DNA of 64,000 nt from Podarcis tiliguerta (Eukaryota), in assembly GCA_965153285.1 (NCBI GenBank), contig OZ229113.1; one strand, written 5' to 3'. This document shows positions 22,632-62,651 of this stretch, in pieces. Within the stretch, counting starts at the first letter, position 1. Each line of letters starts with the position of its first letter. The notes under the pieces are model-generated. The model made no database searches. It was not told the origin of the DNA and saw only the letters and a list, made by a program, of their open reading frames with translations. The position numbers and the translations under genes are program-made.

Positions 22632-22718
22632 TTATAAAATGCAAAAGGAGCAGATGGCTGCTCATTCTGGTGTGATGCTGATCTGTTTCAGATGGAACCA
22701 GTTCAAGGATCTGAATGA

Positions 22719-22872
22719 AGTTTCGTTTCCTCGTCATGAGACAGCATTATTTTCAGTTTCCTTTCTGTGTTCTGCAGCGAGGAAAACTGACACACTGTTG
22801 GGACCCTTGCGATATTGCTTTTGGTGTGGGATAATGCCATTGGTTAGATGCCTTTTTAAGTTTCGATTTCCC
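22719..22872 (+). promoter_or_regulatory. ISRE cluster, distal copy of Mx-A promoter
   Basis: AGTTTCGTTTCC (22719), TTTCAGTTTCCTTTCT (22751), AAGTTTCGATTTCCC (22858); Mx-type and canonical ISRE forms upstream of an Mx gene. Confidence 0.75.
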
Positions 22873-22971
22873 TGAACAGGAAAGGCGGAGCTGATGCTGA
22901 CACAATAGAAACAAGAGCAGCAGGCAAGCAGCATTTCCCCCAGAGCAAGAGGTCAGAATCCTTCCACAGGA

Positions 22972-23178
22972 CAGTCATACCTCGGGTTGCAGACGCTTCA
23001 GGTTGCGTTTTTTCAGGTTACGGACCTGCCGAAATCCGGAAGTACTGAAACGGGTTACTTCCGGGTTTTGGGGTTCACACATGCACAGAATCGCTACCCG
23101 CGTGTTCACAGACATGCCGCTGCAGATTGCCAACGTGCATCCCGCATGGATCATGTTCACAACCCAAGCATCCACAGT
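22972..23178. mobile_element. Tigger-like MITE in the distal promoter copy
   Basis: cagtcatacctcgggttg start; absent from the proximal duplicate. Confidence 0.75.
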
Positions 23179-24732
23179 ATAATCAGCCTGCAGGGTGGAT
23201 TTCCATTTGGGGAGCGGGAAGGGAGAGCCTGGAAAGTAATGACTGGATTAAATGTCTGCAAGCAGAGGAGTCTCACTGGGTTGTAGGGGGAAGAGGGAAT
23301 GTTGTTCACTGCCCCATTCAAGGGTAGCTAACGTGGTGTCCTCCAGAACCTGTTGGGTTACAGTTTCCATCATCCATAACGTTGTCCATGCTGGTTAGGA
23401 GTGGGATTGATGGGAGTTGTAGTCCAGCAACAACTGGAAGTCACCATGCTGGCTATTCTTGCAGAAGACCTACAGAAAGGACTAAACAGGGAAGAGCTGG
23501 TTTGTAGCATCCTGGCTGATACCTGGTCTGCTCTCCCAGCCAGCAGGTGTGTTTGTGTCTGTACAGATGTTTTTTGCCTGCATCACATTGTCTTGTGAGG
23601 TATCCGCCTGCTGGTATGAGAGTGTTCATGCTGATTGCAGTGTGGGCTATTATCTGATCACTGGCTGAGTGGACATGCCACACATACACATACACACACC
23701 AGGTCATGGGTTTGATCCCCACATCGGGCAAAAGATTTGTACATTGCAGGGAATTGGACTAGATGACTCTTGTGGTCCCTTGCAACTCTACGATTCCATC
23801 TCCTGTCAGGAGTGGAAAGATGAGAGCATAGTCATCTTATTATTTGCAGACTCTACTGACTCCAATTCGCTTTTGGACCCAATTCAAAATGCTGGCATCA
23901 AAACCCTGAACGGGTTGGAATTAAGCATATTTTAGGGACTGCGTCTATACATATGAATCCAATTATCCTTTATAATTATCAAGAGATGGCTTGACAACGG
24001 ATTTGGACCTGTTGTAGTACATACAGGGCTTTTTCCGTGTTTGCTCCAAATATAGAACATGCTGTCTGCTCAAGGTTCCACATATCCTGAGCTTGTAGGC
24101 TATTAGATGTCAGTGAACAGCTTTTCTGGTTCTAGTGAGCTTTTAAGTATACTTCTTACTGAGAGCCAGAGAAGCACAGTAACTGAGTTGTTTCCAAGGC
24201 AGTTCTTGGTTCAATCTTGCCTGTGCCATTATTGATGGACGTCTAATGGCCAAATACTTCATGTCACAAGTGTAACAAAGCCCTGTCCCTCCATAAAGTC
24301 CCTCAGAGAGGCATGATTTGCATTATAAAGGACAAACTCTTATTCTGCCCATGGCTTCCCCTGTTACCCACTCGCCCCTACCACTAATTTTATGTCACCA
24401 GTGTGCTGGACTCCTGTTACTTTGGAATCTGCAACATTGTTGAAAGGATCACTCAAGTAATGCACTATTAAAACTCTCAATAAAGTCAGAATCCTGTTGT
24501 TAGCATTTTATTTATACTGCAACTTGTTTCCTAGATTTCAGCTGTTTGTGTTACGGTAATTTTGTTTTGTTTTTAATGGGAGCGGAGTATTGGAAAATCA
24601 GAACATAGTGCTAAACAAATGTGTAATCATTACAGCACTAGTGCATTATAAAATGCAAAAGGAGTAGATGGCTGCTCAGTCTAGTGTGATGCTGAGCAGT
24701 TTCAGATGCAACCAGTTCAGGGATCTGAATGA

Positions 24733-24971
24733 AGTTTCGTTTCCTCGTCATGAGACAGCATCATTTGCGGTTTCCTTTCTGTGTTCTACAGCGAGGAAAA
24801 CTGACACACTGTTGGCACCCTTGCGAAATTGCTTTTGGTGTGGGATAATGCCATTGGTTAGATGCCTTTTTAAGTTGCGATTTCCCTGAACAGAAAAGGC
24901 GGAGCTGATGCTGACACAATAGAAACAAGAGCATCAGGAAAGCAGCATTTGCTCCCAGAGAAGAGGTAAGA
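24733..24971 (+). promoter_or_regulatory. ISRE cluster and putative non-coding exon 1 donor, proximal copy of Mx-A promoter
   Basis: AGTTTCGTTTCC (24733), GGTTTCCTTTCT (24769); consensus donor AG|GTAAGA at 24966. Confidence 0.72.
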
Positions 24972-25377
24972 ATCCTTCCATAGAATAATCAGCCTGCAGG
25001 CAGGATTTCCATTTGGGGAACGGGAAGGGAGAGCCTGGAAAGTAATGACCTCACAGGGTGGATTAAATGTCTGCAAGCAGAGGAGTCTCACTGGGTAGGA
25101 GGGGGAAGAGGGAATGTTGTTCACTGCCCCATTCAAGGGTAGCTAGCGTGGTGTCCTCCAAAAGTTGTTGGGTTACAATTTCCATGCCAAATTGAATTCA
25201 GTGGTTTGGGAAACTTGTTTTTGGCATGTCAAAGCTAAATGCATTCTTAATTTACAAATAGATTCTTATGTGGCATTGAATTATATATTGCTAAATATTT
25301 GGGGGGGTCAGTATGGATGATACCCAGGGATCTCTTTGAAAGCTGCAGTCCAGTTTATGAGAACGTAACATCTATAA

Positions 25378-27115: not shown

Positions 27116-30100
27116 GTAAGGGCAAATTATTTTTTAATTTCGTGGGATACCTCTTAAATACTATGATGCAGACCTCGATACCCCAATAAGGATTCTGGGT
27201 GCAAGGAAACCATTCATATTTAAGGTTTGAATCATCCCTCTTATAATGCTAGAGCCTGGGGCATGGGGTGGGAAGGTTATCCAATAAAGCTGAATTTTGG
27301 AAGATTCCGGGCAGACCAAAGGTAGTATTTCTTCAAACAACACATAGTTAATCTTTGGAGTTCACTCCCACAAGATGTGGTGATAGGTCACTAACTTGGA
27401 TGGATTTGAAAGAGGATTAGACAAAATTTTGGAGGAACAGGCTATCTTGATGGCTAAGTTCTATCTCCACTGTCAGACGCAGTATGTCTCTGTATTCCAG
27501 ATTCTGGGAATCACAAGCAGAGAGAGCACAGTTGCTCTCAAGTTATGCTTGCGAGTTTCCTATAGGCAACTGGTTGGCCACTATGAGAAGAAGATGCTGG
27601 ACTAGCTGAGCCTTTGGCTTGCTCCAGCTTGCCTCTCCTTATAGTGATGCCCCTGATAAGGATGTGTAGGAAGTACCCATATATTATTGCAGGTATGTGC
27701 AAATATGAGCAGGTGGAAGGGACCTGAGAAGCTTACACTTAAGAAAACAGTTGCTGCTCCACATCACTAACATTTATTGGTAAAAATGGTTTATTGGACT
27801 TGATAACTAATTCTAGTTCTGGTCACAGGTGCCCTTTTGTTTTGTTTTTCTTTCAGAGTACAGGTGTCCTGAGCACCCAGTATGAAGAGAAAGTCCGTCC
27901 ATGTATTGACCTTATTGATTCTCTGAGAACCCTCGGAGTGGAGAAGGACTTGGCATTGCCAGCAATTGCTGTGATTGGAGATCAAAGCTCAGGGAAAAGC
28001 TCAGTTCTGGAAGCTCTTTCTGGAGTCTCTCTTCCAAGGGGCAGTGGTGAGAATCCCCCACCCCCTGCTTTTCCTCTTTTTTCTCCATGAGTCAATGTGA
28101 TGCAATCATCAACCTCTATATTAAGATTGTCTTCAGAGTCTATCCCACCATCTGGGGCTCCCACCATCTGGTGTAAAGGGAGGTGGTTCTAAATGCAACC
28201 TGAAAAAAGAGACAATGCATGTATTTTTGTAAACATAAGAAATATTTTTTAAAAATATTTATTTTTTTAAAGAGAGGGCTTTCTTGGTGGTGGCACCCAG
28301 TTTATGACATGCTTTTCCTTGGGGAGATTCACCTGGCAACTCTTTTGCTACTTTGGGAGGACTTTTTATTTTTTCTGAGCCCTTTAAGTAACTTTCATTC
28401 CCATGAAATTGGTTTAATACTTTTTATTAGTCTTTTTCATCAGTTAATAGTTTTATATTGCTTGGTATCTATCCTCCCCTTTTGGTTGCTATCTGTTATA
28501 GGTGTCTTGGGAAATATTTTGTAATGCACAGGATATTACTCTCCCTATGACTAAACAGCTTTCTTTCCCTTCCTTCCTTCCTTCCTTCCGTCCTTCCTTC
28601 CTTCCTTCTTTCTTTCTTTCTGCCATTTGAAGGATGCAAAGACCCAACTATACTGATCATGGCACTTTCTTTGTGTCTAAAGACTTCAGTAGTGTTGTAA
28701 TGTTATGGGCTATGTCTGCTGTCGGTGGCAGTATGCCTCTGAATAGCAGTTACTGAGAATCACAAGTAGGGAGAGGGCTGTTACACGCAGGTTCTGCTTA
28801 CAGTCTTCCCATGGGCATCTGGTAGGCCACTGTGAGCGCTGGATGCTGGATTAGATGGGCCTTTGGCCTGAGCCAACAGGGCTCTTGCATTCTAAGTGTT
28901 CTACCTGCTGATACAACCAGTCTTTCCTTGGCCCACCCATGTTTTGGTGACATTCAAGATAGAGTAGGGCTCCCTTTGCCCTTCCCTGTCATCTTCCATT
29001 CCTTCATGCTTGCTTTTTCACTTTACAGGTATTGTTACAAGATGCCCCTTAGAGCTCAAGCTGAAGAAAACACACAACACGAAGGAATGGAAAGGGAAAA
29101 TTTCATATCTGAACACAGTGGAAGAAATGAATAGCTCGAGACAAGTGGAAGAACAAATCATTAGAGGTAACTGTCGCTGACAGTGCAATCCTATAGATGT
29201 TAACACAGAAGCACGTCTCACTGTTCAGGAGAGCTAGTTTGCACATCGATGCACATAGAATTGCTATCTAAATTACTTTTTTGTATATCCTCTAGTGGGC
29301 AGCCAAACAGATATTAAATTGTTACTAGGGTTGGGCTATACATAAGGAGTTTTTCTGTGATGGTTTTTAGTGTCTTCCTTTGCACCAAGCAGAAATTCCA
29401 AATGCTTGTCTTTGTAATTAGTTTCCTTTTATGCCTAGTCTATTATAGAAGAACACATTTCTGCTGAAGTGTTCACTTTTTGGTCTGTAGGAAGAGATTT
29501 TCCCACAATATTCCTGTACTGTTACAGTGGTACCTTGGGTTAAGAATTTAATTCGTTGTGGAGGTCCGTTCTTAACCCGAAACTGTTCTTAACCTGAGGT
29601 ACCACTTTAGCTTATAGGGCCTCCCGCTGCTGCCGCGCGATTTCTGTTCTCATCCTGAAGCAAAGTTCTTAACCCGAGGTACTACTTCCGGGTTAGCGGA
29701 GTCTGTAACCTGAAGCATCTGTAACCTGAAGTGTCTGTAACCTGAGGTCACACTGTACTTTGTTTTTCCTCCTATAATACAGCCCAGAATGCAATGGCTG
29801 GCTCAGGATCAGGCATTAGCTCAGAATTAATTAGCCTGGAAATCAGCTCCTCAGATGTTCCGGACCTGACTCTGATTGACCTGCCAGGAATTGCAAGAGT
29901 GGCTGTGGGTGATCAGCCAAAAGACATTGGACAGCAGGTAAAAAGAAGATTGTTTTCAGAACTGGTAGGATCCTGAAAATGAATTGGGTGGATACAGCAA
30001 GGTATGGGAGTGCCCACATGCTAAAGGTATGATGCCATTGGAGGTAAGGCTTGCATCTACAAGGGAGAAGGGATTTTATTGGTGGTGCTCCAGTTATGGA

Positions 30101-33086
30101 ATCCTAGGGGCAGAAGTGGGTGGCATGGTGGAGCACTGGTGCTCCTCTGACCTCCTGAGAGCTGCTTACAGGAAAGAGAGAGGTGAGGTGGTGGGGAGGT
30201 CAGGAAGGTTGAAACACACTAGCAAAACCAATCTGGCACTTCTGCTGGTGCACTTGCACTCTCCATCCAGGTAAGCATCAGTGACACAGTTGTCAGGAGC
30301 TTGGGTGAACACTGGCTGGAAGGCATGCCTCGTACCACCATTGATATATTTTTAAACATTTTCTACCACAGTTAAAAAAAATACTAGCAGTTTTTTATTT
30401 GCTGCTTGCTTTGTTTGCTTTATCTGTTGTTTTAATTTTTGTAATTGTTTGTAAATTGCATTGAAATCCTTGGTAGACATTGGAATATAAATAACACTGT
30501 AACACAGCAGTAGGAAACCTGATGTTGCTGGACTCAGACTCCCATCATCCCATGCTGGTTGGGGCTGATGGGTGTTAAAGTACAACAATGCTGATCACTT
30601 CCAATTCCTTGATTAGTTCAATACAGCAGTTATGTTAATAAATCCACTGCTTTGGCACAACAGATTCTTGTATTGTTCCAGTTTTGTACAAAATTTTGGT
30701 TGGCTGTATTTACTCATTTTATAAGGTGCCATATAACACAGCTCTTATTGTCTGAATTTTGTTACAGATAATAAAGTTAATTAAGAAGTATATTAACAAA
30801 CAAGAAACCATCAATTTGGTAGTGGTGCCAAGTAATGTAGACATTGCAACAACGGAGGCACTGAAAATGGCTCAAGAAGTAGATCCCACGGGGGAGAGAA
30901 CACTTGGTAAGTTAAATAAACACTTTAAAAAGTGATGGTGGTGTTTTTAACTACGGGGAGGACAAGTTATCACTGCAGGAATCCTACCACCCTGTTTGAT
31001 TTGCGTCATTCAGAATTTTATTTAGAGGTCTTACTGTAGCCTATTCACTTCTTAACATTTTGCCAAGCATCATTTCGCCAAGCATCTAATCAGTTTTTAC
31101 CATGATTTTGTGTTAGCCCTCAAATCAACCCTCTTTCTGCTGTATTTACTCAAATGGTGACTTATCAGCTGTATATTCTGTGAATATTCTAGACCTGCAG
31201 GCTGAATTCTTCTGGCTGATTCTGTTGCGGCTCTTTGCTGTTGTGAACTGCACATCTGTACAGAGAAATAGAAGAATATTGGGGGTTGGGTGGGAAGGAT
31301 GGACTCAGCATCAAGCAGTGTGGTCCAGAATCGGTGTGGGTCAAGGGCAGCAATTGTGGGTCCAAAGGAGCAGAGGCTGGTAACATGGTCCAAGACCATA
31401 GGTCAGGCTCCAGACAGCAGGCATGCTGAGGCAGCAGAAATCTGCATATCAGGCACTGACAGATTACACAGACTGGGGAGCCAAACCCAATATAGTACTT
31501 GTATTGGGCCAGCTGCCTTCCTATTGGTTCCACAGCTCATCTGATTCAGCTGGTCTGGCATTCTGCAGTCTGTTTCAGCGACCATCAGACTGCCCAATAG
31601 TCAGAGATGGTAGGACTTGGAAGTCTGAATGGCAACAGGCTAGTGAAGCTGTTCTGAAATCTTCTTGTTTGAGTGTTCCATGTGAACATTCTAAAACTGT
31701 TTTGTGAGAAAGAAAATCGCCCCCCCCCCCAATAAATACTTGAGATATAGGAGAAGAAAATGGTCTGTCCTCTTAAGTCATCTTTGGTAGGCAGGCCTCA
31801 AACGCACATGCTCTCACTTTGAAGTCCTCTGTTTCCTAATCCCAAAAATGTGGACAGTCACCATAATTTCACAGTGGTAAGGAGGTTCAGAGACACACTT
31901 TTCCCATACAGGTCCCATGGGTTCAAAGGTGACTTGATTCAGAATATGTACTACCTTTTCTCAAAATAAACCACCTAAAATAAGATACTTTTCTTCCTAT
32001 GCATCTATTATTTCACAGGCATCCTGACCAAGCCTGACTTGGTCGACAAGGGAACAGAGGTAGAGGTGGTCGACATAATCCGGAATCAAAGAGTCCCCCT
32101 GAGAAAAGGATATATGATCGTTAAGTGTCGTGGGCAAAGTGACATCAACGACAAAGTGACTTTGGGAGATGCAATTGAGAAAGAGAGAGAATTTTTCGAA
32201 GAGCACGATTTTTTCAGGTAGGCTTATTTTTAAAAAGAAAGAAAGAAAAATCCATTCGTTGTGGTCTTTGTTGGTTGAAATATAATGCCAAATTAAGTGA
32301 ACGTATGCAACCAATGCAAGCATCTGTTGGACACTTCAGCCTGCAGTACTCCACACACTGAGTCTGATCACTCCAAAGATTGTTTAAACCAGCCCCATTT
32401 GATTGAATATTGGGGCCTGCCTGCCTGCCTGTTTATCTGGATTATACTTGTGTCATACTTTTAAATTTAATTACTCACTCTTGTTTCCTGCTAGATCTCT
32501 TTTGGAGGAAGGCAGAGCTACCATCCCACTTTTGGCAGAAAGGCTTACACAGGAGCTGATAGAGCACATTAGCGTAAGAGAATACTGATTCATTTGAATA
32601 ACTAAATTTGTCAGTGCTTTGAAATAATTGTATTTACCTTGTCTTTGCTGGGAAGCATTTGCTCTGTATCTATTTTTAATGTCCACAAAAAACTTACATG
32701 TTTAGGAAAGCCTGTCCAAACATGTAAGTTAATATGTATTTTAATCTGTAATTTTAGTACATAATGTATATTTTTAATGATTGATTTTATTTATATTTCA
32801 TTTTTTTTAAAGAAAAAGAAAAATTGTTTTCAATCTTTGACTTCTATTGACAATTTTTTGCTTTAAAAAAAGAGTGGGAAAATGGCTGGAGGGGAAAGAG
32901 TTAAATAGCACCTTCTGCTTTCAATTCAAGATTTATACTGTAAAAAAAATACCAGCAGAGGAAAACTACATGTCGTTGGACATGTGACATGTCATTTTTA
33001 GTCCCAGGGCACAACTATATGTTGTATGCAAATGCATGTATCAGAAGTCCAATGATCTCCATTTCTCTAAAGAAAAACTATATGTG

Positions 33087-33117
<31 letters not shown>

Positions 33118-34904
33118 TATCTTGGTTGTCTAAATACATTCTGATTATAGGGTTGTGAATAAGACCTTCTGGCATGCTTTGGTGTGTTCCAAATACAAAG
33201 AAGTTGGTGGCTTCTATGTTTCACCACCAGTGTTAAGCAGCTGCAATAGCATTTATCTCAGTCAAGTGTCAGATTCTGTGAATGATTCTGTGAATTCACT
33301 CTGAAGAGGTGTTGAAACATTCTGAGACTGAATACTTTCCTTCTTGGTGCATGTCTGTCTTTCAGAAAACATTGCCAACTTTGCAAAAACAAATTAAGGA
33401 AAAGCTAGAGGTAACAAATGCAGAGCTGAAAAAATGTGGTCAAGATGTGCCTGAAAACACAGAAGAGATGACTTTCCTCATACAGGTAAATAAATGTGGG
33501 GTTTCCAATTTTATTTCTGGAATGCCTGAAAATTTTTAATATGTGTGTTTCTCAGGAAGCTGAAAACGAAGTACCTAAATATCAGTATCTAATTTTGGTA
33601 GAAGAGGTTTAGGCCTTGAACTCTGGCAGACATTTCCAAGTTTCAATGCAATAATGTACATTTAAAAAGAATGTTGATAATGAAAGACCAAATAAACAAC
33701 AACCATCCGGTGAAAAACAGAGGGTGGGGAGCATGTCCCTCTCCAGATGTTGCTGGACTCCTGACTAATGGTCAAGGGTGATGGGAGGTGATTTTGCATT
33801 AAAAGATTGGACAGCCATATGCTTCAATTGGACCAAAAGCATTGGTACAATACTAAGTTCCAAGGGCCATTATTATTATTATTATCATCATCATCGTCGT
33901 CATCACAGTGGTACCTCGGGCTACAAATGCTTCGGGTTACATACACTTCAGGTTACTCTGCTAACCCGGAGGTAGTACCTCGGGTTGCGAACTTTGCCCC
34001 AGGATGAGAACGGAAATCATGTGCTGGCAGCGCAGCGGCAGTGGGAGGCCCCATTAGCTAAAGTGGTGCTTCAGGTTAAGAACGGATCTCCGGAACGAAT
34101 TAAGTTCGTAACCCGAGGTACCACTATATAATGAATTAATTGATTGATTAATTAATTAATTAATTTTCTATACCGCCCTATACCCGAAGGTCCCATCGTC
34201 ATCAGCTATCCTTTCCCATCAATTATCTCTTTTATTACCTTGTGCATAGTGAATCTAAGTCTAGGCAGACAATAGTTAGGAGAGTTGAAAGTTATGTACA
34301 TTGCAAAACAGGTAGAAAGTCATGTAATGACTCTGCTGTGGGCTTCTCTTTAAATATTATGCCTCCTTCACCCTATATCATCTATTTGAAGGATATACTT
34401 TACTTAAGATGAGGATTGGCTACTTGTTGAAAAGTAACATCAGGGAACCACTTTAAGATTGTAAAGCTTATTTGCATGTGATTTGGGAAGCATTCTCTTT
34501 GTGCTGGTTTAGGAATGGTACTATGGAATATGAAAGGTGGTGCCTATCCTGAACATGATCCACTTCTCTTTTATTATTGTACTCTGCTCACTTGTATAAG
34601 CCATAAAGCTTAAGCCATCAAGTTCAAAGCCTAACGGGTTGACTGTCTGTGTCTTCTGCTGTCCCTTCATCCCCCACCCCGGTCCTTTTAATGGCTTGAC
34701 ATGGCTCCAGCATTTTGGTTTCTTCATTCTTTCCACAATCTATTCTCATTTCAGAGAGAAATTATCCTCACCTCATCTCCTATCCTATGTAAAACCTCAT
34801 TTGCATGTAATGCTTGGTGGCGAGTCTTGATGCTTTCTGGATAATCAATTCTTTTTCAAAAGATGTACATTGTAGCTGGACAGACTGAATTTATATATAA
34901 ATAT

Positions 34905-34954
<50 letters not shown>

Positions 34955-37900
34955 TTTTTACAGAAAATCAAGCTTTTTAATCAAGACATCTTAAATAATG
35001 TACAAGGAGAGGATTTAATGGATTTGAAAGAAACAAGATTGTTCACAAAAGTGCGAAATATCTTTAATCAATGGCAAGAGGAGATCAACAGCAATGCACT
35101 AAATGGTAAACTGTTTCAAATTTCTTATTTTTTTCCCTGCAAGTGAACACCCAGTTTTAACCTGAATTCTCATGCAGGCTGGGTACACGTCAGAGTGATA
35201 GCGTGCATGTAGTTTGCACAGACCCATTTTTCCCATATGCACTTTTGTGCATGTTTGTTCACACATGAGCATTTTCAGTTGAACTCTGATCTCAGTATTT
35301 CCTAGCCACACTTGTGGGTGGGTGCGGTACTTAATGGGATATATGCACATTATGTGCTGTTGTCCCTATCATCTCTGAATTCCAGAAACCTGTGGTTCAT
35401 TTTGGGCATTGTCACAGATATTTGTTTACCTGTGCATGCAGCCCATTTTTATTTTGCTTTTGAGATAGACGTCTTCCAATATCAAACTTGCAGAAAAGAG
35501 CAGGTTAAAAAAATGTGTGTTCTATAATTCATGGAGTAGCCATGATTATTAACTTCATCAGTACTGGAGCCTCGAAAGCTGAGGGTGATTACTTAATGCA
35601 ATTTTTTCAATGTTGCAGTAACAGATACTATGAAAGATGAAGTTCACAGCTATGAAAATATATATCGTGGTAAAGAACTCCCAGGGTTTATTAATTACAA
35701 GACCTTTGAGACCATTGTCAGACGACAAATTATGATGCTGAAATCGCCAGCTGTTGAAATGTTGGCGGATGTAGCAGGTACGTTTTACAGTAGCAACATG
35801 GTTTCTGTTTCTAATATCTGGTTTATGTAAAGGATTTCATGTGTGATTTTAGGAATATAATTTAGTCTGGAATATATCATTTCTGAATGTTGTTGACGTA
35901 CTGTTAATATAGAAATAGCAGTTTTAAAACAGAATAGTTTTTTAATTTTAATACACATAAGTATTGTGAATATTTTGATTGACAAATGCAGGGTAATCAA
36001 AACACTTTAAAAGTCACTTGCAGAAAAACAAATTATTCTCTGTTAAGAGCACTACCTTCTATAGTGCAATCTTATGCATGTCCACTCAAAAGTAAATGTC
36101 ACTAAATTTTATACCAGGTAATTAGGTATAGAATCGCAGCCTAAATGTTTAATTGGCTTTGTGAAAGTCAGTAACAGCTCATAATTTATTTGCATACACA
36201 ATTTAACCCAATGATCTTCATGACTTGTGTCCTTTTTTATATCTGCATATTGCTTAGCATATATTGGCCTTGAAAGGAAAGAATATATATATATATATAT
36301 ATGCTTTCGTAGATTTTCACGGGTACAGGAATGCAGGTTTTGGTGTCCTCGGGTGTCTTCCCGTGTAAAAGTTGGGGTGTCTAGGCGACGTTTCGACGAG
36401 GTCTCACTCGTCATCTTCAGGCTGGTGCTTTCGGCTTCTTGTTACTGGAACAGAGCAGGATCTCAGTGTTTGAGTTCCTATAAATACTGTTGAGGAGGTG
36501 TGGTGTATAGCCTCCAATGTTCTGGGCAGAGAGGAGGTTCCCAGGCTAGTGTGCCTTTTCTTCTTTTGTTCCTTAATTACACAGATAAATTACAGACACC
36601 ATCCAGTAGCCAAACCAGGGTGGCACCTCCGGATGCTGCACCCCCCTGCAATCCCTACACAGATCTGGCTGGCACAGGCCACAAAACCACAGCTCGCCCC
36701 TATACACGAAGCCAAGCCAGAGCACAACCAAGTGCAGTACAGCCATCTTCTCAGAAAAACTCTTCACAAAGTTCAAGAGTTCAAGACACGAAGGCTTTAG
36801 CAACTAATCCACACCTAATGACCCACCTAAGTGGGATTCAGGAAATCACTCAAGAAATCACTCAAGATATCCCTCAAGTAATTAAGGAACAAAAGAAGAA
36901 AAGGCACACTAGCCTGGGAACCTCCTCTCTGCCCAGAACATTGGAGGCTATACACCACACCTCCTCAACAGTATTTATAGGAACTCAAACACTGAGATCC
37001 TGCTCTGTTCCAGTAACAAGAAGCCGAAAGCACCAGCCTGAAGATGACGAGTGAGACCTCGTCGAAACGTCGCCTAGACACCCCAACTTTTACACGGGAA
37101 GACACCCGAGGACACCAAAACCTGCATATATATATGCATATCATATATATATGTGAAAATCTACGAAAGCATATATATATATATATATATATGAGATTGA
37201 GCACAGTAATAATTGATTATTATGCCACAATAATTGATTATTATGCCACAATCTTACATGTCTTCTGTCAGTTGATCATTCTGATCCTAATTCTAACAAA
37301 ATACTTCCTAGGAAGCAATTCCCATTAATATTGTTTACTTGATTTTCCCAGTCTCTCTGTCTTTCTCAGCATATTGTACACACACAAGCACTCTAATCTG
37401 CATGCATGCCTCTGAGTAGAAGGTTGGGTTAACGGTAGACACAATAGCAAGAGTGGTCATTCTTTTCTGACATGTTGCACAATTTAACTGATGTGAACAC
37501 ATGTGTGTGCAGGGGCGCTGACTTGCTCCCCACATGTGGGGTGGGGGCAGCAGGCCAGTCTTGCCCAGCAGTGGTGGGGGACGGCGGCCCCCTAACTATT
37601 GGGGGGGCTCAGCCTCCTGCCCATAAATAGTGTTGGCACCCCTATGTGTGTGTGTTGGTAGAGGTGAAGGTGTGTAAAGACACAAGCCCAGGGCCCCAGT
37701 TTTTTCCAACAATACACAGGACAGTATATTATTTACTTTGGCCAGTTGCTTAGGAATTTTAGCCACAATTTTTCTCTTAAGATTTTGTGCCTTTAAATGG
37801 TTCTCCCCGTTTTCTAGAACTTGTGTGGGAAAATTTTATTCAAACTGCCTCCCAACACTTTGGTGCTTTCTACAATCTTCTGAGAGCTGCTCAGGTAAGA

Positions 37901-40656
37901 AGTGATGTATTTAGTTATAACCATGATTGTTAGACAAAAGGCAGACATGGAACCCTCTAATGAATCCATACAACCAGGATGGCTCTAGTGTGCTTGCTGA
38001 CAATCAGGGCTTTAAAGCACAGTTTCTCGTGATATCACTATGAAGTCAGGTGATTGACAGGTGGGCAGAAAATTTAGACCTGGCCCATCTTTCTGAAAAG
38101 GTCTCCCCCTGACTCCCACTTCAGATGATGAGTGTTTTATGTGAGCTCTGCCCCCAGGTATGTAAAGGTCCTGCCTTGATCCTAGATTTAAAAAATAAAT
38201 AAATAGTTTGACTTAATTTTAACTACTTCCTTGCCCCACCTAATATATATGAAGGAGATGATATGATGCAGGGATGGGGCTACTCTGCTGACGAGAGCCC
38301 ATGCGTCATGGACTGGTTGCTCAGAGGCCAGGGAGTGGTGGTGGGACAAGGATGAGCCATCAGAGGGAGAAGACTGAGGTGTCAGAAACTGAAGAGGGAA
38401 CAGGGCATAGTGAGCTGGGAGAGTCTGTGGCAGAGGGAAGTCCAGAATCAGAGGCAGACGCTGAAGCAGGGGAGGAGGCCAAGAGGCAGAGATGAGTCTG
38501 GCTGGAGAAGGTGTCTCTCCTTCCTGCTGTGACAAACTCCCTTCCCTGCTTGTCTCCCAGAACCAGAAGAAGTATGAAAAGAGCCAAGGAGAGATTAGTG
38601 AGGTGTAGATGCAGTCTCTTGCTTGGGGGGAAAAAAAACCCTGGAGAGGGGGGGGGGACTTATCTGTGGGGAGGTGGGGACCTTCAGTCTCAGCAACTGC
38701 TTTATGGGGGCAAGACCTACCAGAGATGAGTTGCGCTTTTTAGGCCCGACGCTCCTTTGCAGATAGTGTGCTTGCTGCTAAAGACTTAACCCTAACTTGC
38801 ACAGTATGATTTACTGCTGGCTCGCTCTTGACACAATGGTAGCTTTATATTTTTAAAGTGGAAATATTATCCACTGATATTTCTGTGCAAGATGGTATTC
38901 TGTGGTTCTCTCAAAATGTAACTGTTCTTCTACCATCAATTGTGGAGTTCTGACGAGGCCTGCTCGTCTTTTTGGAATGAGACAGTCTCTCACCAGGTTA
39001 GCTTGAAAGGATCTCACACACCAAGATGGATTTTGAAGGGATCTCGCACAGCCTCCAAAGCTGCTGCCCGCCTTTATTGTAGTGTTCAGCAAAATGATAC
39101 AACAATGTATCAGAAGCAAACAAAGAAAGCACAGTACATCACGCCTCTCTCAGACCATGTTACGTGGACCAATCACTAAATAGCATGGACTGATCACGCG
39201 TTGTCCATGCTTTTAAGCAGCATCTTGCTTTGCCCTGTAAGAAACTTCTGCCCATGCGCTTATGCATAAGCAACCATTTTCCTACAGAGTTCATGCATTT
39301 CAAATATTTGTACCTTTCCCAGCTCGCATGGAAGTGCTTTGTAACACCCTACCTTATTTATCTACACAATGCTACCCATCAAGGCTTGCGGAAGGGTCCA
39401 GTTTTTAAAAATCTCTGATAACACCTTTGCCTGAGACACTGGAACTGTCATTCAGGGTGGTGGGTGAAATGGACTAATGACCTATATTGGTAAAGCAGTT
39501 TTAAGTGTTATTTTCTGAGCCTTACTGATTATACTTGGGAACACTGAGTGTAGGGGTTCTCATAATGAATTACTGTGGAACAACAAAAGATAATATCTTT
39601 TGTCATGCAGATCAATATTGAAGATATAAAACTGAAGCAAGAAGAGGCTGCGGTATCCATGATCAATACTCAGTTTAAAATGGAACAAATAGTGTACTCC
39701 CAGGACAGTATTTATAGTGAAGATTTAAGTGGTATTAGAACGAAAGGTGTTGAAAATGCATCTACAGGATCAGTTGTAGTTCCTGCAAAGCTATGCTCCA
39801 TGGAGGAAATGACTTACCACTTGAACGCTTACTTCAAAGTGAGTTTCAACTTCTTTTTTTAACACCTCAATCTCCCATTACTACACGGAACAACTCTAGT
39901 AGTAAAATAAAGAAACAGAGTATCCAAAACTTTGATCTGAATAGTTTTTCTCCTGGGCTGATATAGCCTTCCACCACCTTCCCGCTCCTCTCTTAGGAGA
40001 GCTGAACTCAGTTTTAAAGTTTTTAATCTGTTGCTTTGGAGCAGCTTGCTCTTAACATAAATGTCACATAATAACCTAAATAAAGAAGTACTTACACATG
40101 CACATACATCAGGTTATCTCTTAGAGCTCTCATTGTAAAAAAAAAAAAAAAAAGTGGGTGGGGCATGGATATGATGAGAGAAATTATTTGCTCTATTGTC
40201 TGGGCCCAGAAAAAAGAGAACCAAACTAATTTGTGAAATAAATAAGGCCCCATTATCCCTCTCTGGATTGATTGTTAGTGGGAGGGATTTAAGCCTTCTT
40301 CCAGTGACCTATGTTTAAGTGGATGACCTGTTGTAATGATAGTCTTTTGATAATGCTACCTTCCTGGTTTTGTCTGTCTGTTAATCAGTCTAAAAACCCA
40401 AACATTTCTCTTATTCTGTTTGCAGAGCGCAGGAACCCGTCTTGGAACCCAAATTCCCATGATTATTCGGACATATGTTCTCCAGGATTATGCTGACAAA
40501 TTACAAAATGCAATGCTGCAACTCTTGCAAAACAAAGATCAGTTTGACATTCTCCTTCAGGAGAGGTACGATACTTCCAATGTGAGGAACACTCTGAAGG
40601 AGAAGATCAAGCGTCTCACCAAAGCACGACAGCATTTAGCAAAATTCCCCATGTAA
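27020..40656 (+). CDS. MX1: Mx interferon-induced dynamin-like GTPase, paralogue A, complete, 650 aa (MX1/MX2 orthology unresolved)
   Basis: join(27020-27115,27857-28046,29029-29166,29783-29937,30768-30906,32019-32217,32495-32573,33366-33485,34964-35105,35619-35777,37818-37894,39611-39838,40426-40656) = 1953 nt, open frame. G1 GDQSSGKS, signature LPRGSGIVTR, G3 DLPG, G4 TKPD, stalk [10 protein letters not shown]-terminal [14 protein letters not shown]; internal exon sizes (138,155,139,199,79,142,159,77) match those of paralogue B. Confidence 0.95.
27240..27620 (+). mobile_element. Degraded CR1-like 3' fragment
   Basis: ttcttcaaacaacacatagttaatctttggagttcactcccacaagatgtggtgat...tttgaaagaggattagacaaa resembles the CR1 3' end. 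Confidence 0.55.
27857..28046 (+). CDS. MX1: Mx-A exon (P-loop)
   Basis: [17 protein letters not shown]...[23 protein letters not shown]. Confidence 0.96.
28566..28620. repeat. (CCTT)n/(CTTT)n microsatellite
   Basis: Directly visible. Confidence 0.9.
29029..29166 (+). CDS. MX1: Mx-A exon
   Basis: [14 protein letters not shown]...VEEQIIR. Confidence 0.95.
29525..29755 (-). mobile_element. Tc1/mariner MITE family 1
   Basis: Reverse-orientation copy ending 27 nt before an Mx-A exon. Confidence 0.85.
29783..29937 (+). CDS. MX1: Mx-A exon
   Basis: AQNAMAGSG...[26 protein letters not shown]. Confidence 0.95.
30768..30906 (+). CDS. MX1: Mx-A exon
   Basis: [46 protein letters not shown]. Confidence 0.95.
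32019..32217 (+). CDS. MX1: Mx-A exon
   Basis: [14 protein letters not shown]...[11 protein letters not shown]...FFEEHDFFR. Confidence 0.95.
32495..32573 (+). CDS. MX1: Mx-A exon
   Basis: [26 protein letters not shown]. Confidence 0.94.
33091..33116. repeat. (CA)n microsatellite
   Basis: Directly visible. Confidence 0.95.
33366..33485 (+). CDS. MX1: Mx-A exon
   Basis: [14 protein letters not shown]...EEMTFLIQ. Confidence 0.93.
33906..34126 (+). mobile_element. Tc1/mariner MITE family 1
   Basis: Same TIRs and body. Confidence 0.82.
34908..34953. repeat. (TA)n microsatellite
   Basis: Directly visible. Confidence 0.95.
34964..35105 (+). CDS. MX1: Mx-A exon
   Basis: [17 protein letters not shown]...[13 protein letters not shown]. 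Confidence 0.93.
35619..35777 (+). CDS. MX1: Mx-A exon
   Basis: [26 protein letters not shown]...PAVEML. Confidence 0.94.
36384..36423 (-). ncRNA. Minimal hammerhead ribozyme motif, inverted copy
   Basis: Reverse complement of the 37035 motif. Confidence 0.68.
37035..37074 (+). ncRNA. Minimal type-I hammerhead ribozyme motif (PLE-associated)
   Basis: CTGAAGA (37038-44), T, helix II GACGAG/tgagac/CTCGTC, GAAA (37064-67), CGTC with predicted cleavage after GUC at 37071; helix I is short. Confidence 0.7.
37818..37894 (+). CDS. MX1: Mx-A exon
   Basis: [26 protein letters not shown]. Confidence 0.92.
39611..39838 (+). CDS. MX1: Mx-A exon (contains loop L4)
   Basis: [12 protein letters not shown]...[15 protein letters not shown]...[14 protein letters not shown]. 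Confidence 0.94.
40426..40656 (+). CDS. MX1: Mx-A last coding exon (GED/BSE)
   Basis: [15 protein letters not shown]...[10 protein letters not shown]...[17 protein letters not shown]. Confidence 0.95.
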   Translation, partial: SAGTRLGTQIPMIIRTYVLQDYADKLQNAMLQLLQNKDQFDILLQERYDTSNVRNTLKEKIKRLTKARQHLAKFPM

Positions 40657-44869: not shown

Positions 44870-46290
44870 GGCTTCCCCTGCTCTTATAGTCGGCCCCACT
44901 CGGGTGGAGTGAGGAAGCATCTCTGCAGTGTTTGTGGGTTTTTCTTCCATCTGAGGCTCTTCCAGCTCAAGCGCGCAAGATATTTCCTCATCCAGAGCCT
45001 ACTGCACTTACGTTCGGCGGGGCCAGCTTTCCTGCACCCCAAACCTACAAAGAAGGCGGGGGGGGGGATAAGAAGGTAAAGATGCAGGGATCGGGCGTAA
45101 GGCCCGCTTCGTCCGGCATCCGGCCCCAAGGTGCCTTCTGGGAAGCTCGCCAGCAGGATCCGACCACAGCTGCGCCCTCCCCGCTGGCGATCCAGGGAAC
45201 TTAGTTGCTACGCCGGGCACCATCCTCTCCGCTCCCCGCCCCTTCCCGCTTTCCTTTCTGCCCAGATTTTACTTTTAAGTTTCATTTCCCCAGATTTTGT
45301 CCCGGGGAAGAGGCGGGGCGAGGGATGCTGCTAAATTGCCGGCCCGGAGATCCAGAGGAGACTGGCTCGGAGTCGCTTCGGTGGACGCAACAGCCAGAGA
45401 TCCGGCAGCGGGACAGATCGCCACCCAAGATCTCCGCTCCGTAAAGGTAACGTTTCCCCTCGACCCTTTCGACGCCTTGCTGTTAATCGAGTGATAGGCA
45501 AACAACCTTCTAGGAGAGATTTCATTTTATGCCGCAAGAGGGCGAGCGACGCTGGTTGCGGCTCCGCCTTCCCTCCTGGAAGAGCCGAAAGGTCTCGCTC
45601 GGTCCTTGGAGGCGCTTCAGCCTTTCCATTTAATGGGGCGAATAAAGGCTTCGTGGGGCGGGAGGGAGGGGCCATGTTCTCGGGCCCCTGGCTTGGGGAG
45701 GAAGGGCGGCGTTGATTGGCCCCCATTGCGCTCTGCCTTCGCGCCCCAGGACGCAGCAGGTGGGAAGCGTCCCGCCCGAAGTCCTGCTGGATACGGGGGT
45801 GGGAGGGTTAGTCTCGAGAAGTGAAGTTGGGATTAATAAAGGGGGCGTGGGATTTTGGTTAGGAGGCGCAGACCCTCGGATTCGTATTGCTTTTTATTGA
45901 TGGGGGGAACTGCCCCCTTGGCTACGCCAGGGAAGGGGGCTCAGTTCCCTCAGGCAGGCACGCGAAGTGCCACAAAACAGCCTGAGGGACGCAGTCGGGT
46001 TGTCGTTCTTTCACGGTCCTGTAGCACCAGCCCAGAAGTGATGCTCCGCTCCGGGCTAGTCAGGCTGTCCGGTGTAGAGAGGCGGTGTTTTCTGAGGGAA
46101 GACTGCTGGCGCCCCTTGTGGCAGAAGCGAATAGCGCTGAAGCCCTTTTGTCACCTGATATGAACGCTCCTTGTAGTTTTGGGCGTTGGCTGGTTCTTGT
46201 TTGGAGCCGCGCTAAAAGGTTCCTGTTCCAGGCAGATGCAGAGCTTGATGCCCCCTTGGTGTGGGGAAGAGCTAAGGATGGAAGTGTCAG
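44870..46290. promoter_or_regulatory. CpG island promoter of Mx-B with ISREs and non-coding exon 1
   Basis: GC/CpG-rich; TTTCCTTTCT (45250) and AGTTTCATTTCC (45278); GC boxes ccccgcccc and ggcggggcg; donor AAG|GTAACG at 45447. Confidence 0.8.
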
Positions 46291-50383: not shown

Positions 50384-53300
50384 GTAAGTCTTTTGAGTTA
50401 ATATGCACCTTGTTAGCACTGAAATACTGCAATTTAGAGCCAACTTTTTAGTCAAGGTTGTGCATTCTTGACACTAAACAAATCTAGGATTGTATGCCTC
50501 AGAAATCCAGATTACTGGCCAAGAAAATCTGAAATTATGTGGGTCTGCATAATTACTCTTATTTTCTGAAATTTATCCTGCTGCTTCTCCCTTGAGCCCT
50601 GCTTGTAACTAAAGTCATACCTTGGAAGCAGAACGCCTTGCAAGTCGAGCGTTTTGGCTCCCGAATGCTGCAAACCCAGTGAGTGTTCCGGTTTGCGAAC
50701 ATTCTTTGGAACCCAAACATCCAGTGCGGCCTCCGATTAGCTGCAGGAGCTCCCTTGGTTTCCAAATGTTTTGGAAGTCGAATGGACTTCCGGAACGGAT
50801 CCTGTTCGACTTTCGAGGTATGACTGTACTGGATATCTTACTCAGCCACCCCTCTGGCTTTGGAGAGCTTAACAGGTGTTGCCCACACACTCTCAAGAGT
50901 ATAGGCTCCTAGCCATAAGAGCCTGTGTGAGGGTTCAGGGAGCAGATGTTGGAACAGGACCCATTACAAGACTAGTAGGGGAAGGAAGGATGGATGGAGA
51001 GGGGAAACCACAAGGGAGGCCACTGTCTTCCTCTCTAGATGGCCAGTTGTCTTGAGTGAGAGGGAATCTTTCTCATGGGAACTAACCTGCCTGGTGTGTT
51101 GTCTTTTTCTGGAAGGAGACTGGTTATGAATCAACTATGTTAGTGATGTTTGAGAATGATAACGAACACAAATTCTGCTCATGGTCCTGTTGGAATATTC
51201 TAGTTGCTAGGCAATGGAAAATTTCTCCAGCAACAGGTGTCCTTATCAGGGAAGTCTGGGTCAGTGTAAATGACTACAGTCATACCTCAGAAGTCGAAAG
51301 GAATCTGTTCTGGAAGTCTGTTTGACTTCCAAAATGTTCTGAAACCAAAGTGTGGCTTCTAATTGGCTGCAGGAAGCTCCTGCAGCCAATCAGAAGCTGC
51401 GGAAACCCTGTCGGACGTTCGACTTCTAAAAATAGTTCGCAAACCAGAATACTCACTTCCGAGTTTATGGTGTTCGGGAGCCAAAAAATCCAAGATCTAA
51501 GCTGTTCAAAAACCAATGTTCAATTGTATGTGAATGAGTCAGCATTAGGTATCTGGCCTGATGGCTAAAAAGAGAAAAAGATTATGTTGCCTTATTTGCT
51601 TTGCTCATTAATGACCAGTGGAAAGTTTTGTAAATAACATATACTCTGAGAAACAGGACCAGATGATGTTTATTCCTGTAATGGGAATTTCACTAAGAGA
51701 TAGCTGGAATGCTGCTGATGCTATAAAGAAGTAAAAGATGCAGAAAAGCCTTTCTGTAAAAAGGAACTCTTTTGCAGAAAGAAATGAAAACCCAAGAGTA
51801 AGATGCTCACACACCAAAAAGACGTGCCTAGCCTGGTCTAGAACCAATGCTACTTTTTGTGCATGTTCAGTGATCTTTTTGATCCAAGCTGCTCCTTTGA
51901 GTGTCACTCAGTGTTTGAAATACAATTCTGGCTTAGCTTTACATCTGACCCAAGGGCGGTTCTTTTGTTTCTTCATCGTAATTTGTTCGAATGAAACAAG
52001 CCCCCAGTTTAGACATAACTTCAGAGATTGTGTTTTGTGGTCCCATTTGCGCAAAGCAGGAGTTTTCTCCCTATTCAAAGCAAACCATTAACCACGGCTC
52101 AGATGATGTATGAATAGAGCCACATACTAAAATGGAAGTGAACTGTGTATTTGTGTGTTTTTAACCAGAAACCAGAAAACACCTTATTCAACCAATACGA
52201 GGAGAAGATCCGCCCTTGTATTGACCTCATTGATACCCTGAGAGCCCTCGGAGTGGAGAAGGACTTGGCATTGCCAGCAATTGCTGTGATTGGAGATCAA
52301 AGCTCAGGGAAAAGCTCAGTTCTGGAAGCTCTTTCTGGAGTCGCTCTTCCAAGGGGCAGTGGTGAGAAATCCCGCCGGCTTTTCCTTCTGGGAAGCTTTG
52401 AGGATGTGCAAGTTCAGAGATTTTTTAACTTCAGTGTTCCTACTTTATAAGAGGCATCTTTATTTTCTAAAGTTACCTTCTCTTTGGTGTCTTTGCCTGC
52501 ATTATTTTAACATCTCAGAGGGTTGGATACACTTCAAAGAAAGCAATGTTACCAGTTAGAAGTCTCTCATTTATGAGAAACTAAATTGATTTTAAAAAAA
52601 TCTTTTTGTAATATTATCGGGGGGGGGAGGGGAATGGCACTGTTCACCTATAAGGTTAAGTGCAAAGATTTTAAGATAGCTGCCTACATCTGCAGTATTG
52701 CTCAGATTATTTATGGAGGTCCATTTTAGGAGCTGATTTTGCCCTAGAACTAGGTGTCGTTTCATCATAATCCATGGGATTCTGCCTGTTTTTAGCAATC
52801 TTTAGGAAGTTTCTGTGAATCTGAATAACCTATACTTTTAATGAATTGGATTCTCTTCATGAACAGGCATTGTCACCAGATGTCCCTTAGAACTCAGGCT
52901 AAAAAAGCTGCAGCCTGGTGAAAAATGGAATGGGAAAATCAGTTACCTGGGAAAATATATGGAACTTGCAAATCCTTCAATGGTAGAAATAGAAATAAGA
53001 AAAGGTGAGTGTTGTGGTTTCCATTATAGTCAATAACAGATCATTATTTTCTTTCTTAATTTCCTTCTATTATAAATGAGAATATTTCTTCAACCAAATT
53101 CTATGTATAGTCCCAAAACCAGTGATGAGGTTTACCAGAAAATTTAGGGTAATTTTGCACTGGATTTTTTAAAATTAAAATAAGGTTTCTTATAAAATCT
53201 TATCCAATTTAGTGTATTTATTTTACTTTTATTTAGCAAACAAAGCTTAACACTTGATAACAATGAAGCTTCTCTCACGTTGTATTTGACATTGATTGTC

Positions 53301-55962: not shown

Positions 55963-55998
<36 letters not shown>

Positions 55999-61900: not shown

Positions 61901-62651
61901 TAAATTAAACAAACCTAAACCTATCCTGATTCCAACTAATGGTTCCCGGGGTGATTTACTGAGCTTTTTGTAAATCCGTGACAGGTTTTGGGGGTTTTAA
62001 AAAAATGTTCTTCTTCCTGCAGTTCAAGAATCCCTACTCCCCGAGAAGTGGAAATTTGAAAATCAGTATCGTGGCAGAGAGCTTCCTGGATTTCTCAATT
62101 ACAAGACGTTTGAGATGATTACAAGGAAATATATCACCAATCTAGAAATACCAGCTGTTGATATTCTAACTAGAGTTACAGGCAAGTCCATTTATTAAAT
62201 TTAGATTTCTGGCTACTGGGACAGTGTAAGTTGTTTTAAATCATTTTAAATGTTGCAGTTGTACCCGCCATAGGACTTTAGGGTGAAAGGTGTGTAATAA
62301 AGGAGATTGATTATACATAACATAAAAATATGAAAGGGGTTTTCAAATACTATCTATATATAATAAAAGCACATGCAATGTAAGTGATTTTGCTTGAGCT
62401 GTGAAACCTCCAACATTTATATTTTTGTAAAAGGGCTGTAGGAAAAAATGAATGGAATTGTTAATGGTTTGGGTGTGTGCAACATTTTTACCAAAATACA
62501 TGTGAGAAAGCAAGAAATTATTTTTCTACACAGATTCTGATCATTTGGTGTATTCTCTCCCCCCCCCCTTTCAGAAATAGTGCGTCAAGGTTTTGTGGCG
62601 ATTGCTAAAAGCCATTTTGAAGGATTTCATAATCTTCATTCGGAAGCCAAG
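50105..62651 (+). CDS. MX1: Mx interferon-induced dynamin-like GTPase, paralogue B, 3'-incomplete in window (MX1/MX2 orthology unresolved)
   Basis: join(50105-50383,52169-52361,52867-53004,54225-54379,54656-54794,55371-55569,56133-56211,56340-56462,57723-57864,62023-62181,62575-62651...). Frame open throughout with [26 protein letters not shown] and YRGRELPGF; the L4 and GED exons are not in the window. Confidence 0.94.
50612..50826. mobile_element. Tigger-like MITE family 2
   Basis: agtcatacctt...aggtatgactg. Confidence 0.75.
51277..51526. mobile_element. Tigger-like MITE family 2
   Basis: Homologous to the 16342 copy. Confidence 0.75.
52169..52361 (+). CDS. MX1: Mx-B exon (P-loop)
   Basis: [18 protein letters not shown]...[23 protein letters not shown]. 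Confidence 0.96.
52867..53004 (+). CDS. MX1: Mx-B exon
   Basis: [14 protein letters not shown]...VEIEIRK. Confidence 0.95.
53836..54081. mobile_element. Tigger-like MITE (CpG-rich, young)
   Basis: TA|CAGTCATACCTCGGG...GATACCACTG|TA; related to the 22972 copy. Confidence 0.78.
54225..54379 (+). CDS. MX1: Mx-B exon
   Basis: AQNIIAGDG...[26 protein letters not shown]. Confidence 0.95.
54656..54794 (+). CDS. MX1: Mx-B exon
   Basis: [46 protein letters not shown]. Confidence 0.95.
55371..55569 (+). CDS. MX1: Mx-B exon
   Basis: [14 protein letters not shown]...[15 protein letters not shown]...FFEKHKCF. Confidence 0.95.
55617..55997 (+). mobile_element. L2-type LINE 3' fragment with (TTA)n tail
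   Basis: ggcctcggtcctgtatacctgaaggagc...gccttctcggtagtgg...tggaatgccct; tail (ATT)n. Confidence 0.7.
56133..56211 (+). CDS. MX1: Mx-B exon
   Basis: [26 protein letters not shown]. Confidence 0.93.
56340..56462 (+). CDS. MX1: Mx-B exon
   Basis: [11 protein letters not shown]...GEKQYFLAE. Confidence 0.93.
57723..57864 (+). CDS. MX1: Mx-B exon
   Basis: KIEHFIADV...QGEE...[13 protein letters not shown]. Confidence 0.93.
58571..61424 (+). mobile_element. BovB (RTE clade) LINE, near full length, frameshifted
   Basis: APE endonuclease ([25 protein letters not shown]) and RT ([18 protein letters not shown]) split across frames; (CAA)n tail; 9-bp TSD aaaccaact at 58562-58570 and 61425-61433. Confidence 0.95.
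61613..61858 (-). mobile_element. Sauria SINE, partial
   Basis: Reverse complement of the same SINE body. Confidence 0.82.
62023..62181 (+). CDS. MX1: Mx-B exon (ends at a GC donor)
   Basis: [21 protein letters not shown]...PAVDIL; 159 nt, same as the Mx-A exon. Confidence 0.93.
62575..62651 (+). CDS. MX1: Mx-B exon
   Basis: [26 protein letters not shown]; 77 nt. Confidence 0.92.

What the first reader, a model, noticed from the sequence alone, without database searches (positions are those of the whole stretch)
36283..37192. Young 250-bp inverted repeat (Penelope-type) inside an intron of the antiviral Mx-A gene
Seen: 36331-36580 is the reverse complement of 36878-37127 with no mismatch I can find. 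The arms enclose a 297-bp spacer, with a further 18-bp outer arm and (TA)n on both sides. Established: Penelope-like elements often insert as 5'-truncated copies with an inverted pseudo-LTR. Inference: this is a recent, possibly polymorphic insertion. Mx-A pre-mRNA would fold into an approximately 250-bp duplex about 0.5-0.65 kb from both flanking exons. That would place an ADAR substrate, and a potential PKR/MDA5 ligand if the intron escapes the nucleus, inside an interferon-induced transcript. It could also affect splicing of the 77-nt exon downstream.
Basis: partly seen in the sequence, partly recalled or inferred. Interest (0 to 1): 0.72.

Follow-up and report, generated by a model that had tools for sequence, protein, structure and literature searches.

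The report
Ordinary Penelope retrotransposon palindrome in Mx
The 250-base mirror repeat in an intron of an antiviral Mx gene is real and is a short, protein-less, back-to-back copy of a very abundant Penelope-type jumping gene, missing from a close relative; it is predicted to fold into double-stranded RNA, but the genome likely holds many hundreds of such insertions, so its place in Mx is likely chance.

Summary
The inverted repeat is confirmed: 36331-36580 against 36878-37127, 250 nt, 100%. It is two 5'-truncated 3' ends (250 and 548 nt) of a Penelope/Poseidon retroelement, joined head to head in a (TA)n run. It is 99.5% identical to a long copy that encodes a ~1,000-aa RT + GIY-YIG protein. 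The element's hammerhead-like 38-mer has 3,375 exact matches in the genome. Of 100 insertion clusters in the first 72 Mb of C1, 64 are simple outward-facing pairs, and 60 of those 64 carry the known ~28-nt tail at exactly one end. One contig of a relative about 2% diverged bridges the site without the insertion, so it is young; polymorphism within the species stays open. The host is an intact-looking Mx gene. The hairpin is predicted; nothing shows editing, MDA5/PKR sensing or a splicing effect. An 18-kb gene has about a 2% chance of such an insertion. The scan noted the same kind of insertion before on other DNA. Ordinary; the family's paired-end statistics are the only lead.

The parts
36283..36302 (.). 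Left (TA)n run, target microsatellite
   Evidence: nearly all family ends examined abut (TA)n
36303..36330 (-). 28-nt PLE tail on the left (shorter) copy
   Evidence: the same tail sits at one end of family insertions and continues into the ORF in tandem copies; 1,617 tailed ends next to (TA)n genome-wide
36331..36580 (-). Left arm: 250-nt 5'-truncated 3' end of the element, inverted
   Evidence: 100% to long copy L037; 100% complementary to 36878-37127
36387..36420 (-). Minimal hammerhead-like motif, antisense to the Mx transcript
   Evidence: reverse complement of 37038-37071
36580..37127 (+). Right copy: 548-nt 5'-truncated, tail-less 3' end of the element (the 297-nt 'spacer' plus the right arm); encodes only the low-complexity C-terminus of the ORF; 1-nt overlap at the inversion junction
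   Evidence: 99.45% to L037 over 548 nt; 99.45-100% to full 547-nt matches in other copies; no Pfam hit; junction
37038..37071 (+). Minimal hammerhead-like motif (core, one bulged U, 6-bp stem II, palindromic stem III stub) overlapping the element's likely ATG at 37044; sense to Mx; predicted to be paired in the hairpin
   Evidence: features as in PMC4209133; no Rfam hammerhead hit
37128..37170 (+). 25-nt AT-rich filler plus an 18-nt tail fragment; unique to this copy; likely an aborted priming event or an assembly error
   Evidence: 1 match genome-wide; not verified by reads
37171..37192 (.). Right (TA)n run
35619..35777 (+). Upstream Mx exon (159 nt)
   Evidence: PDB Mx1 E=2.5e-14
37818..37894 (+). 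Downstream Mx exon (77 nt)
   Evidence: AG/GT borders, keeps the reading frame
27857..40656 (+). Host Mx gene, 12 coding exons traced (618 codons, only the final stop); the first coding exon was not located

Best explanation
The repeat is a recent, protein-less insertion of a high-copy Penelope/Poseidon retroelement, made of two 5'-truncated copies of the element's 3' end joined head to head in a (TA)n run of an Mx intron; it is predicted to form a 250-bp RNA duplex in the pre-mRNA and is likely a neutral passenger. Shown: identity, truncation, orientation, tail on one end, family size, and absence from a relative's contig. Inferred mechanism: the element's GIY-YIG endonuclease cuts both strands of AT-rich DNA. 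Each free end would prime reverse transcription, one at the distal start site (giving the tail) and one at the proximal site (no tail), and the two truncated cDNAs would be joined over a 1-nt overlap. Inferred fate: the duplex forms in the nucleus, is probably edited by ADAR like other intronic inverted repeats, sequesters the hammerhead motif, and is degraded with the spliced intron.
For: 99.45% and 100% identity to a long copy whose ORF carries RVT_1 (E 6e-16) and GIY-YIG (E 0.0014, below the Pfam cutoff). ESM Atlas neighbours at 0.98 have HTH_animal/RVT_1/GIY-YIG architecture. 3,375 exact hammerhead 38-mers, 1,617 tailed and 1,415 tail-less ends beside (TA)n. 60 of 64 simple pairs have one tailed end, against half expected if ends were independent (p 4e-14). 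The published description of EN+ PLEs is the same: an inverted 5'-truncated copy, a 30-40-bp tail often at one end, microsatellite bias (PMC8557442, passages; PMC3846280, passages). The Anolis Poseidon protein cuts and extends both strands of AT-rich DNA, starts at two RNA sites that bound the tail, and has its ATG inside the hammerhead (PMC11167929, parts 1-2 of 4); here the ATG also lies in the motif. Empty site in organism B. Chance of a hit in an 18-kb gene is 1.8-2.5%.
Against: Neutrality is inferred from base rates, not measured. No RNA reads from a carrier were available, so editing and splicing are untested. The right end has an extra tail fragment seen once in the genome, which the simple two-primer account does not explain without an aborted first priming. 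Arm lengths are strongly correlated across the family (21 of 54 within 30 nt against 2.6 in shuffles), which two independent truncations would not give, so a fold-back step is probably involved. The GIY-YIG Pfam score is below its cutoff. No phylogeny against named Poseidon elements was built.
Confidence: 0.88

Rival explanations
1. The insertion is the same element but has a real effect on Mx: the duplex slows or alters splicing of the intron, or, when interferon induces Mx and infection disturbs splicing, intron-containing RNA reaches the cytoplasm and feeds MDA5/PKR.
For: A perfect 250-bp duplex is predicted. ISRE-like motifs lie upstream at 22720-22870 and 24734-24780. In human cells MDA5 binds intronic, Alu-proximal host RNA during infection (PMC13506345, abstract only).
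Against: Both arms are in one intron and more than 500 nt from each splice site. Most measured family insertions give equal or longer duplexes (39 of 54; 17 of 23 in the set not chosen by length), so any sensing would be a genome-wide load and not specific to Mx. The element is too young to show conservation.
Confidence: 0.07
2. The palindrome at this locus is an assembly or read-chimera artefact built from a high-copy repeat.
For: The arms are 100% identical, no laid contig spans the element, and the right end is unique.
Against: The flanks are unique and not mirrored. The arms differ in length and tail as in dozens of other copies. Contigs of organism A (X1, X2, X4) break at the TA run on the left, and X1 also on the right, whereas B runs through. 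1.46 Gb in 258 contigs suggests a long-read assembly.
Confidence: 0.03
3. The sense-strand hammerhead cleaves Mx pre-mRNA co-transcriptionally and damps Mx expression.
For: A minimal hammerhead-like motif lies sense to Mx at 37038-37071.
Against: Its complement is transcribed first, and the motif is fully paired in the whole-intron fold. Single minimal PLE hammerheads showed no cleavage in vitro (PMC4209133, passages), and the Anolis one needs the element's protein (PMC11167929).
Confidence: 0.02

Closest known systems
PAc / Poseidon_Ac of Anolis carolinensis (Frangieh et al. 2024, PMC11167929)
   Same: Single ORF with RT and C-terminal GIY-YIG, tandem units forming pseudo-LTRs, start codon inside the hammerhead motif, AT-rich targets, and a tail between two 3' end points (here +84 and about +112 from the ATG).
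   Different: Different host and family. Sequence identity to PAc was not measured because PAc was not among the fetched sequences. This copy is a non-coding stub. The one-tail-per-insertion count and the arm-length correlation are not quantified in the parts read.
Inverted, tailed insertions of EN+ Penelope-like elements (Arkhipova et al. 2013, PMC3846280; Craig et al. 2021, PMC8557442)
   Same: An inverted 5'-truncated copy joined head to head, a ~30-nt tail on one end, microsatellite targets that hide any target-site duplication.
   Different: Here both halves are truncated stubs, so the arm is a second truncated copy and not a full pseudo-LTR. An extra detached tail fragment sits at the tail-less end.
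Intronic inverted Alu repeats (IRAlus) of primates (PMC11263572, search listing only; PMC13506345, abstract; the rest recalled)
   Same: Retroelement-derived inverted repeat in an intron, predicted to form nuclear dsRNA that ADAR could edit.
   Different: Made in one insertion event, perfect rather than about 80-85% paired (recalled), far rarer, and no editing or sensing was shown here.

Membership tests
EN+ Penelope-like elements | Single ORF with RT followed by a C-terminal GIY-YIG endonuclease in the parent element | tested here: met
   P0001: RVT_1 410-588, E 6e-16; GIY-YIG 757-796, E 0.0014, below the cutoff; Atlas neighbours
EN+ Penelope-like elements | [quoted passage not shown] | tested here: met
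   read by eye from the translation: CxxC between the two halves of the core and two downstream histidines; definition in PMC8557442
EN+ Penelope-like elements | Partial tandems (pseudo-LTRs) and inverted 5'-truncated copies | tested here: met
   2,965-nt tandem units in L031, L032 and L037; inverted arms in the pair loci fetched
EN+ Penelope-like elements | Optional ~30-nt tail at one end | tested here: met
   60 of 64 simple pairs; this copy is tailed on the left
EN+ Penelope-like elements | Minimal hammerhead motif in the terminal repeat | tested here: met
   core, bulged nucleotide, 6-bp stem II and palindromic stub read from the sequence against PMC4209133; Rfam gave no hammerhead hit; cleavage untested
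Penelope/Poseidon clade | No CX2-5CxxC zinc-finger linker between RT and EN (present in Neptune and Nematis); EN C-terminal (N-terminal in Naiad) | tested here: met
   the linker of P0001 holds a single cysteine, read by eye; definition
Penelope/Poseidon clade | RT phylogeny groups with named Poseidon elements | not tested
   no named PLE reference proteins were fetched
Repbase/Dfam named family | Match to a deposited consensus | not testable with these tools
   neither library is offered
Mx dynamin-like GTPases (host gene) | Dynamin_N, Dynamin_M and GED domains with best structural-sequence hits to Mx | tested here: met
MxA orthologue | One-to-one orthology with mammalian MX1 | tested here: inconclusive
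   Mx1 scores above Mx2, but there are two tandem paralogs in the window and no tree was built
ADAR-edited or MDA5/PKR-sensed intronic dsRNA | A-to-G clusters, retention or cytoplasmic dsRNA in carrier RNA | not testable with these tools
   no raw RNA reads of the carrier species were offered

The most novel reading that the evidence does not exclude
This young family records how Penelope elements integrate. Each insertion uses two primers, one from each cut strand, at the two different RT start sites (one tail per insertion, 60 of 64). One cDNA then folds back on itself and switches onto the other. That would explain the matched arm lengths (21 of 54 within 30 nt) and why the loop is mostly on the tail-less arm (25 of 33 where the arms differ by more than 60 nt). 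The Mx copy's detached tail fragment would be a frozen aborted start.
Probability: 0.3. Interest if true: 0.5.

Novelty: new member of a known kind. Interest (0 to 1): 0.15.

Why it matters
As a locus it matters little: it is one of an estimated 1,500-2,000 young insertions and at best a species or population marker in an immune gene. If the filled allele segregates, it offers a clean natural test of whether a perfect intronic duplex changes splicing or innate sensing in an interferon-induced reptile gene. The family matters somewhat more. It is apparently active, copies are 99-100% alike, several hold open ~1,000-aa frames, and its end and arm statistics give predictions for the still unresolved late steps of Penelope integration, testable with the in-vitro Anolis system. 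It also implies a genome-wide load of several hundred perfect duplexes, a share of them in introns, that the host must edit or silence.

Tried and rejected
A DNA search of the own genome with the 547-nt body returned nothing because common words are skipped; an exact pattern then showed 3,375 matches. Rfam gave only sub-threshold AT-rich miRNA and sRNA matches and no hammerhead; the miRNA reading was rejected. The 157-aa frame in the stub has no Pfam domain; it is the element's C-terminal tail and not a new gene. PDB holds no close relative of P0001, only 4 weak RT hits. The two read-laying runs covered the flanks only, so the arms, the inversion junction and the odd right end are unverified by reads. 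Run X4 (organism A, another study) had no cover just right of the insertion, so polymorphism is undecided. A first count of 'tail on the shorter arm' (25 of 32) came from a crude arm-walk. BLAST-based lengths gave 20 shorter, 9 longer and 3 ties, and 15, 6 and 3 in a second set; the bias vanished when the tail was counted in the length (16:16 and 9:15). Only the subset differing by more than 60 nt keeps it (25 of 33, p 0.005), so it is a weak lead. A MITE or DNA-transposon reading (terminal inverted repeats in TA) was rejected because both arms are 3' ends of an RT-encoding element with variable 5' truncation. Circular-RNA promotion was rejected because no exon lies between the arms. Paper searches for a lacertid Penelope study, twin priming in PLEs, PLE hairpin small RNAs, a two-strand dimer model and reptile Mx genes listed nothing on this locus or on the paired-end counts. 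Only listings were seen for those, subscription papers are not covered, and no supplements were read (those of PMC11167929 may hold tail statistics).

Full report
Observation. The repeat finder gives arms 36331-36580 and 36878-37127, 250 nt, 100% complementary, 297 nt apart, with an outer 38-nt pair made of 18 nt of unique sequence plus (TA)n. The region folds at -642 kcal/mol against -234 for shuffles. Nothing else in the window matches the arm.

Host gene. Twelve GT-AG exons from 27857 to 40656 give 618 codons with only the final stop; the first coding exon was not located. Exons hit Dynamin_N, Dynamin_M and GED, and their best PDB matches are Mx1, then Mx2. A second Mx paralog starts near 52184. 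The insertion sits in the 2,040-nt intron 35778-37817, before a 77-nt exon. The window's repeat content suggests a squamate, likely a lacertid lizard; this is my inference and comes from no call.

Identity of the repeat. A 38-nt exact pattern from the right arm has 1,666 + 1,709 matches in the genome and 0 for the reversed control. I fetched 40 stretches around the first 100 matches. They match the window's 547-nt body at 98.9-100% (one short match 97.5%), and several carry open frames of up to 1,043 codons. [quoted passage not shown] Against L037 the window holds one 548-nt piece (36580-37127, 99.45%) and one inverted 250-nt piece (100%), overlapping by 1 nt. The 'spacer' is therefore just the extra length of the longer copy. 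A minimal hammerhead-like motif lies at 37038-37071, with the likely ATG at 37044 inside it. This matches the layout of the Anolis Poseidon element (PMC11167929, parts 1-2 of 4 read).

The architecture is the family norm. Genome-wide there are 1,617 tailed and 1,415 tail-less ends abutting (TA)n. On the first 72.3 Mb of C1, 176 such ends form 100 clusters: 64 simple outward-facing pairs, 5 complex and 31 single; some singles have a partner that misses the exact pattern. Of the 64 pairs, 60 have one tailed and one tail-less end, 2 have two tails and 2 have none. In fetched loci, 33 of 39 and 26 of 28 were simple two-ended, and 32 and 24 of those had exactly one tail; these overlap the 64 and are not independent of them. 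After dropping 2 with complex junctions, 39 of 54 have a shorter arm of at least 250 nt, and 21 of 54 have arms within 30 nt of each other, against 2.6 in shuffles (0 of 20,000 reached it). Extrapolating, the genome holds roughly 1,500-2,000 insertions and several hundred duplexes as long as this one. The inverted copy, the one-sided tail and the microsatellite bias are published (PMC8557442 and PMC3846280, passages). The latter proposes self-priming to explain head-to-head palindromes.

Age. In run X5 (organism B) a contig of 1,780 letters at depth 10.3 appears in both read-laying runs. Its letters 1279-1780 lie on 36270-35770 and its letters 1-1226 on 38428-37216, leaving 52 letters where the window has 945. 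That it is the same record is inferred from equal length, depth and strand. B differs at about 2% of flank positions, so the insertion postdates that split. In organism A the contigs of X1, X2 and X4 end 32-35 letters past 36270, and X1's right contig begins at about 37170. This fits a filled allele but does not prove it, and X1 may be the assembly's own source. Polymorphism is open.

Mechanism. Shown: two 3'-coterminal truncated copies, one tailed, head to head in (TA)n. From the Anolis work: the protein cuts and extends both strands of AT-rich DNA, is predicted to dimerise, and starts at two RNA sites bounding the tail. Inferred: each cut end primes at a different start site, and the products are joined with a few bases of overlap or filler (junctions from -16 to +35 nt). 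The matched arm lengths argue for a fold-back step in addition to two primers. The bias of the tail to the shorter arm is weak. This copy's extra right-end filler and tail fragment occur once in the genome and may be an aborted start or an assembly error.

Function at Mx. The whole-intron fold pairs the arms and buries the sense hammerhead. Single minimal hammerheads did not cleave in vitro (PMC4209133, passages). ADAR editing of a perfect nuclear duplex is likely on general knowledge (recalled) but untested. Random placement gives a 1.8-2.5% chance per 18-kb gene, no exon is looped out, and the insertion is too young for conservation. No RNA from a carrier could be examined.

Earlier notes. 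After forming this reading I found several unreviewed notes of the scan on similar Penelope palindromes in other lizard genomes. They agree but are not independent evidence; one pointed me to PMC3846280. No note lies near this place.

Verdict. New member of a known kind; interest 0.15.

Noticed in passing
window 52184-62180 and beyond: A second, diverged Mx paralog lies in tandem (45-90% exon identity to the first), with a large RTE/Bov-B-like LINE remnant at about 58500-61400 in one intron (the LINE name is recalled).
   Followed up: partly
window 22632-22977 and 24646-24991; 45249-45290: A 347-bp duplication (93%) carries ISRE-like motifs upstream of the first Mx gene, and similar motifs lie in a GC-rich region upstream of the second; these are likely the interferon-responsive promoters.
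   Followed up: no
window 34892-34953: A (TA)32 run ends 10 nt before the acceptor of the exon at 34964, in the branch-point and pyrimidine-tract region. Length variation here is a more direct candidate for a splicing effect than the palindrome, and it is also a target for the same element.
   Followed up: no
window 36479-36486: A TATA-like octamer in the left arm is antisense to the element but faces along the Mx sense strand; bidirectional pseudo-LTR promoters were proposed in PMC3846280.
   Followed up: no
window 37128-37170: AT-rich filler plus a detached tail fragment at the tail-less end, unique in the genome.
   Followed up: partly
G000:C1 loci L031-L099: Arm lengths of family insertions are correlated (rho 0.79), with exact or near-exact palindromes of up to 2.1 kb per arm (L035, L093, L098), and one tail per insertion.
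   Followed up: yes
L033:2956 and L040:2135: Internal tailed ends followed by a short (TA)n and then more element sequence, suggesting template switches or insertion into the element itself.
   Followed up: no
L038:1278 and L038:5101: One family copy sits in a (TAGA)n microsatellite rather than (TA)n.
   Followed up: no
window 37208-37249: A perfect 21-bp tandem duplication 15 nt right of the insertion.
   Followed up: no
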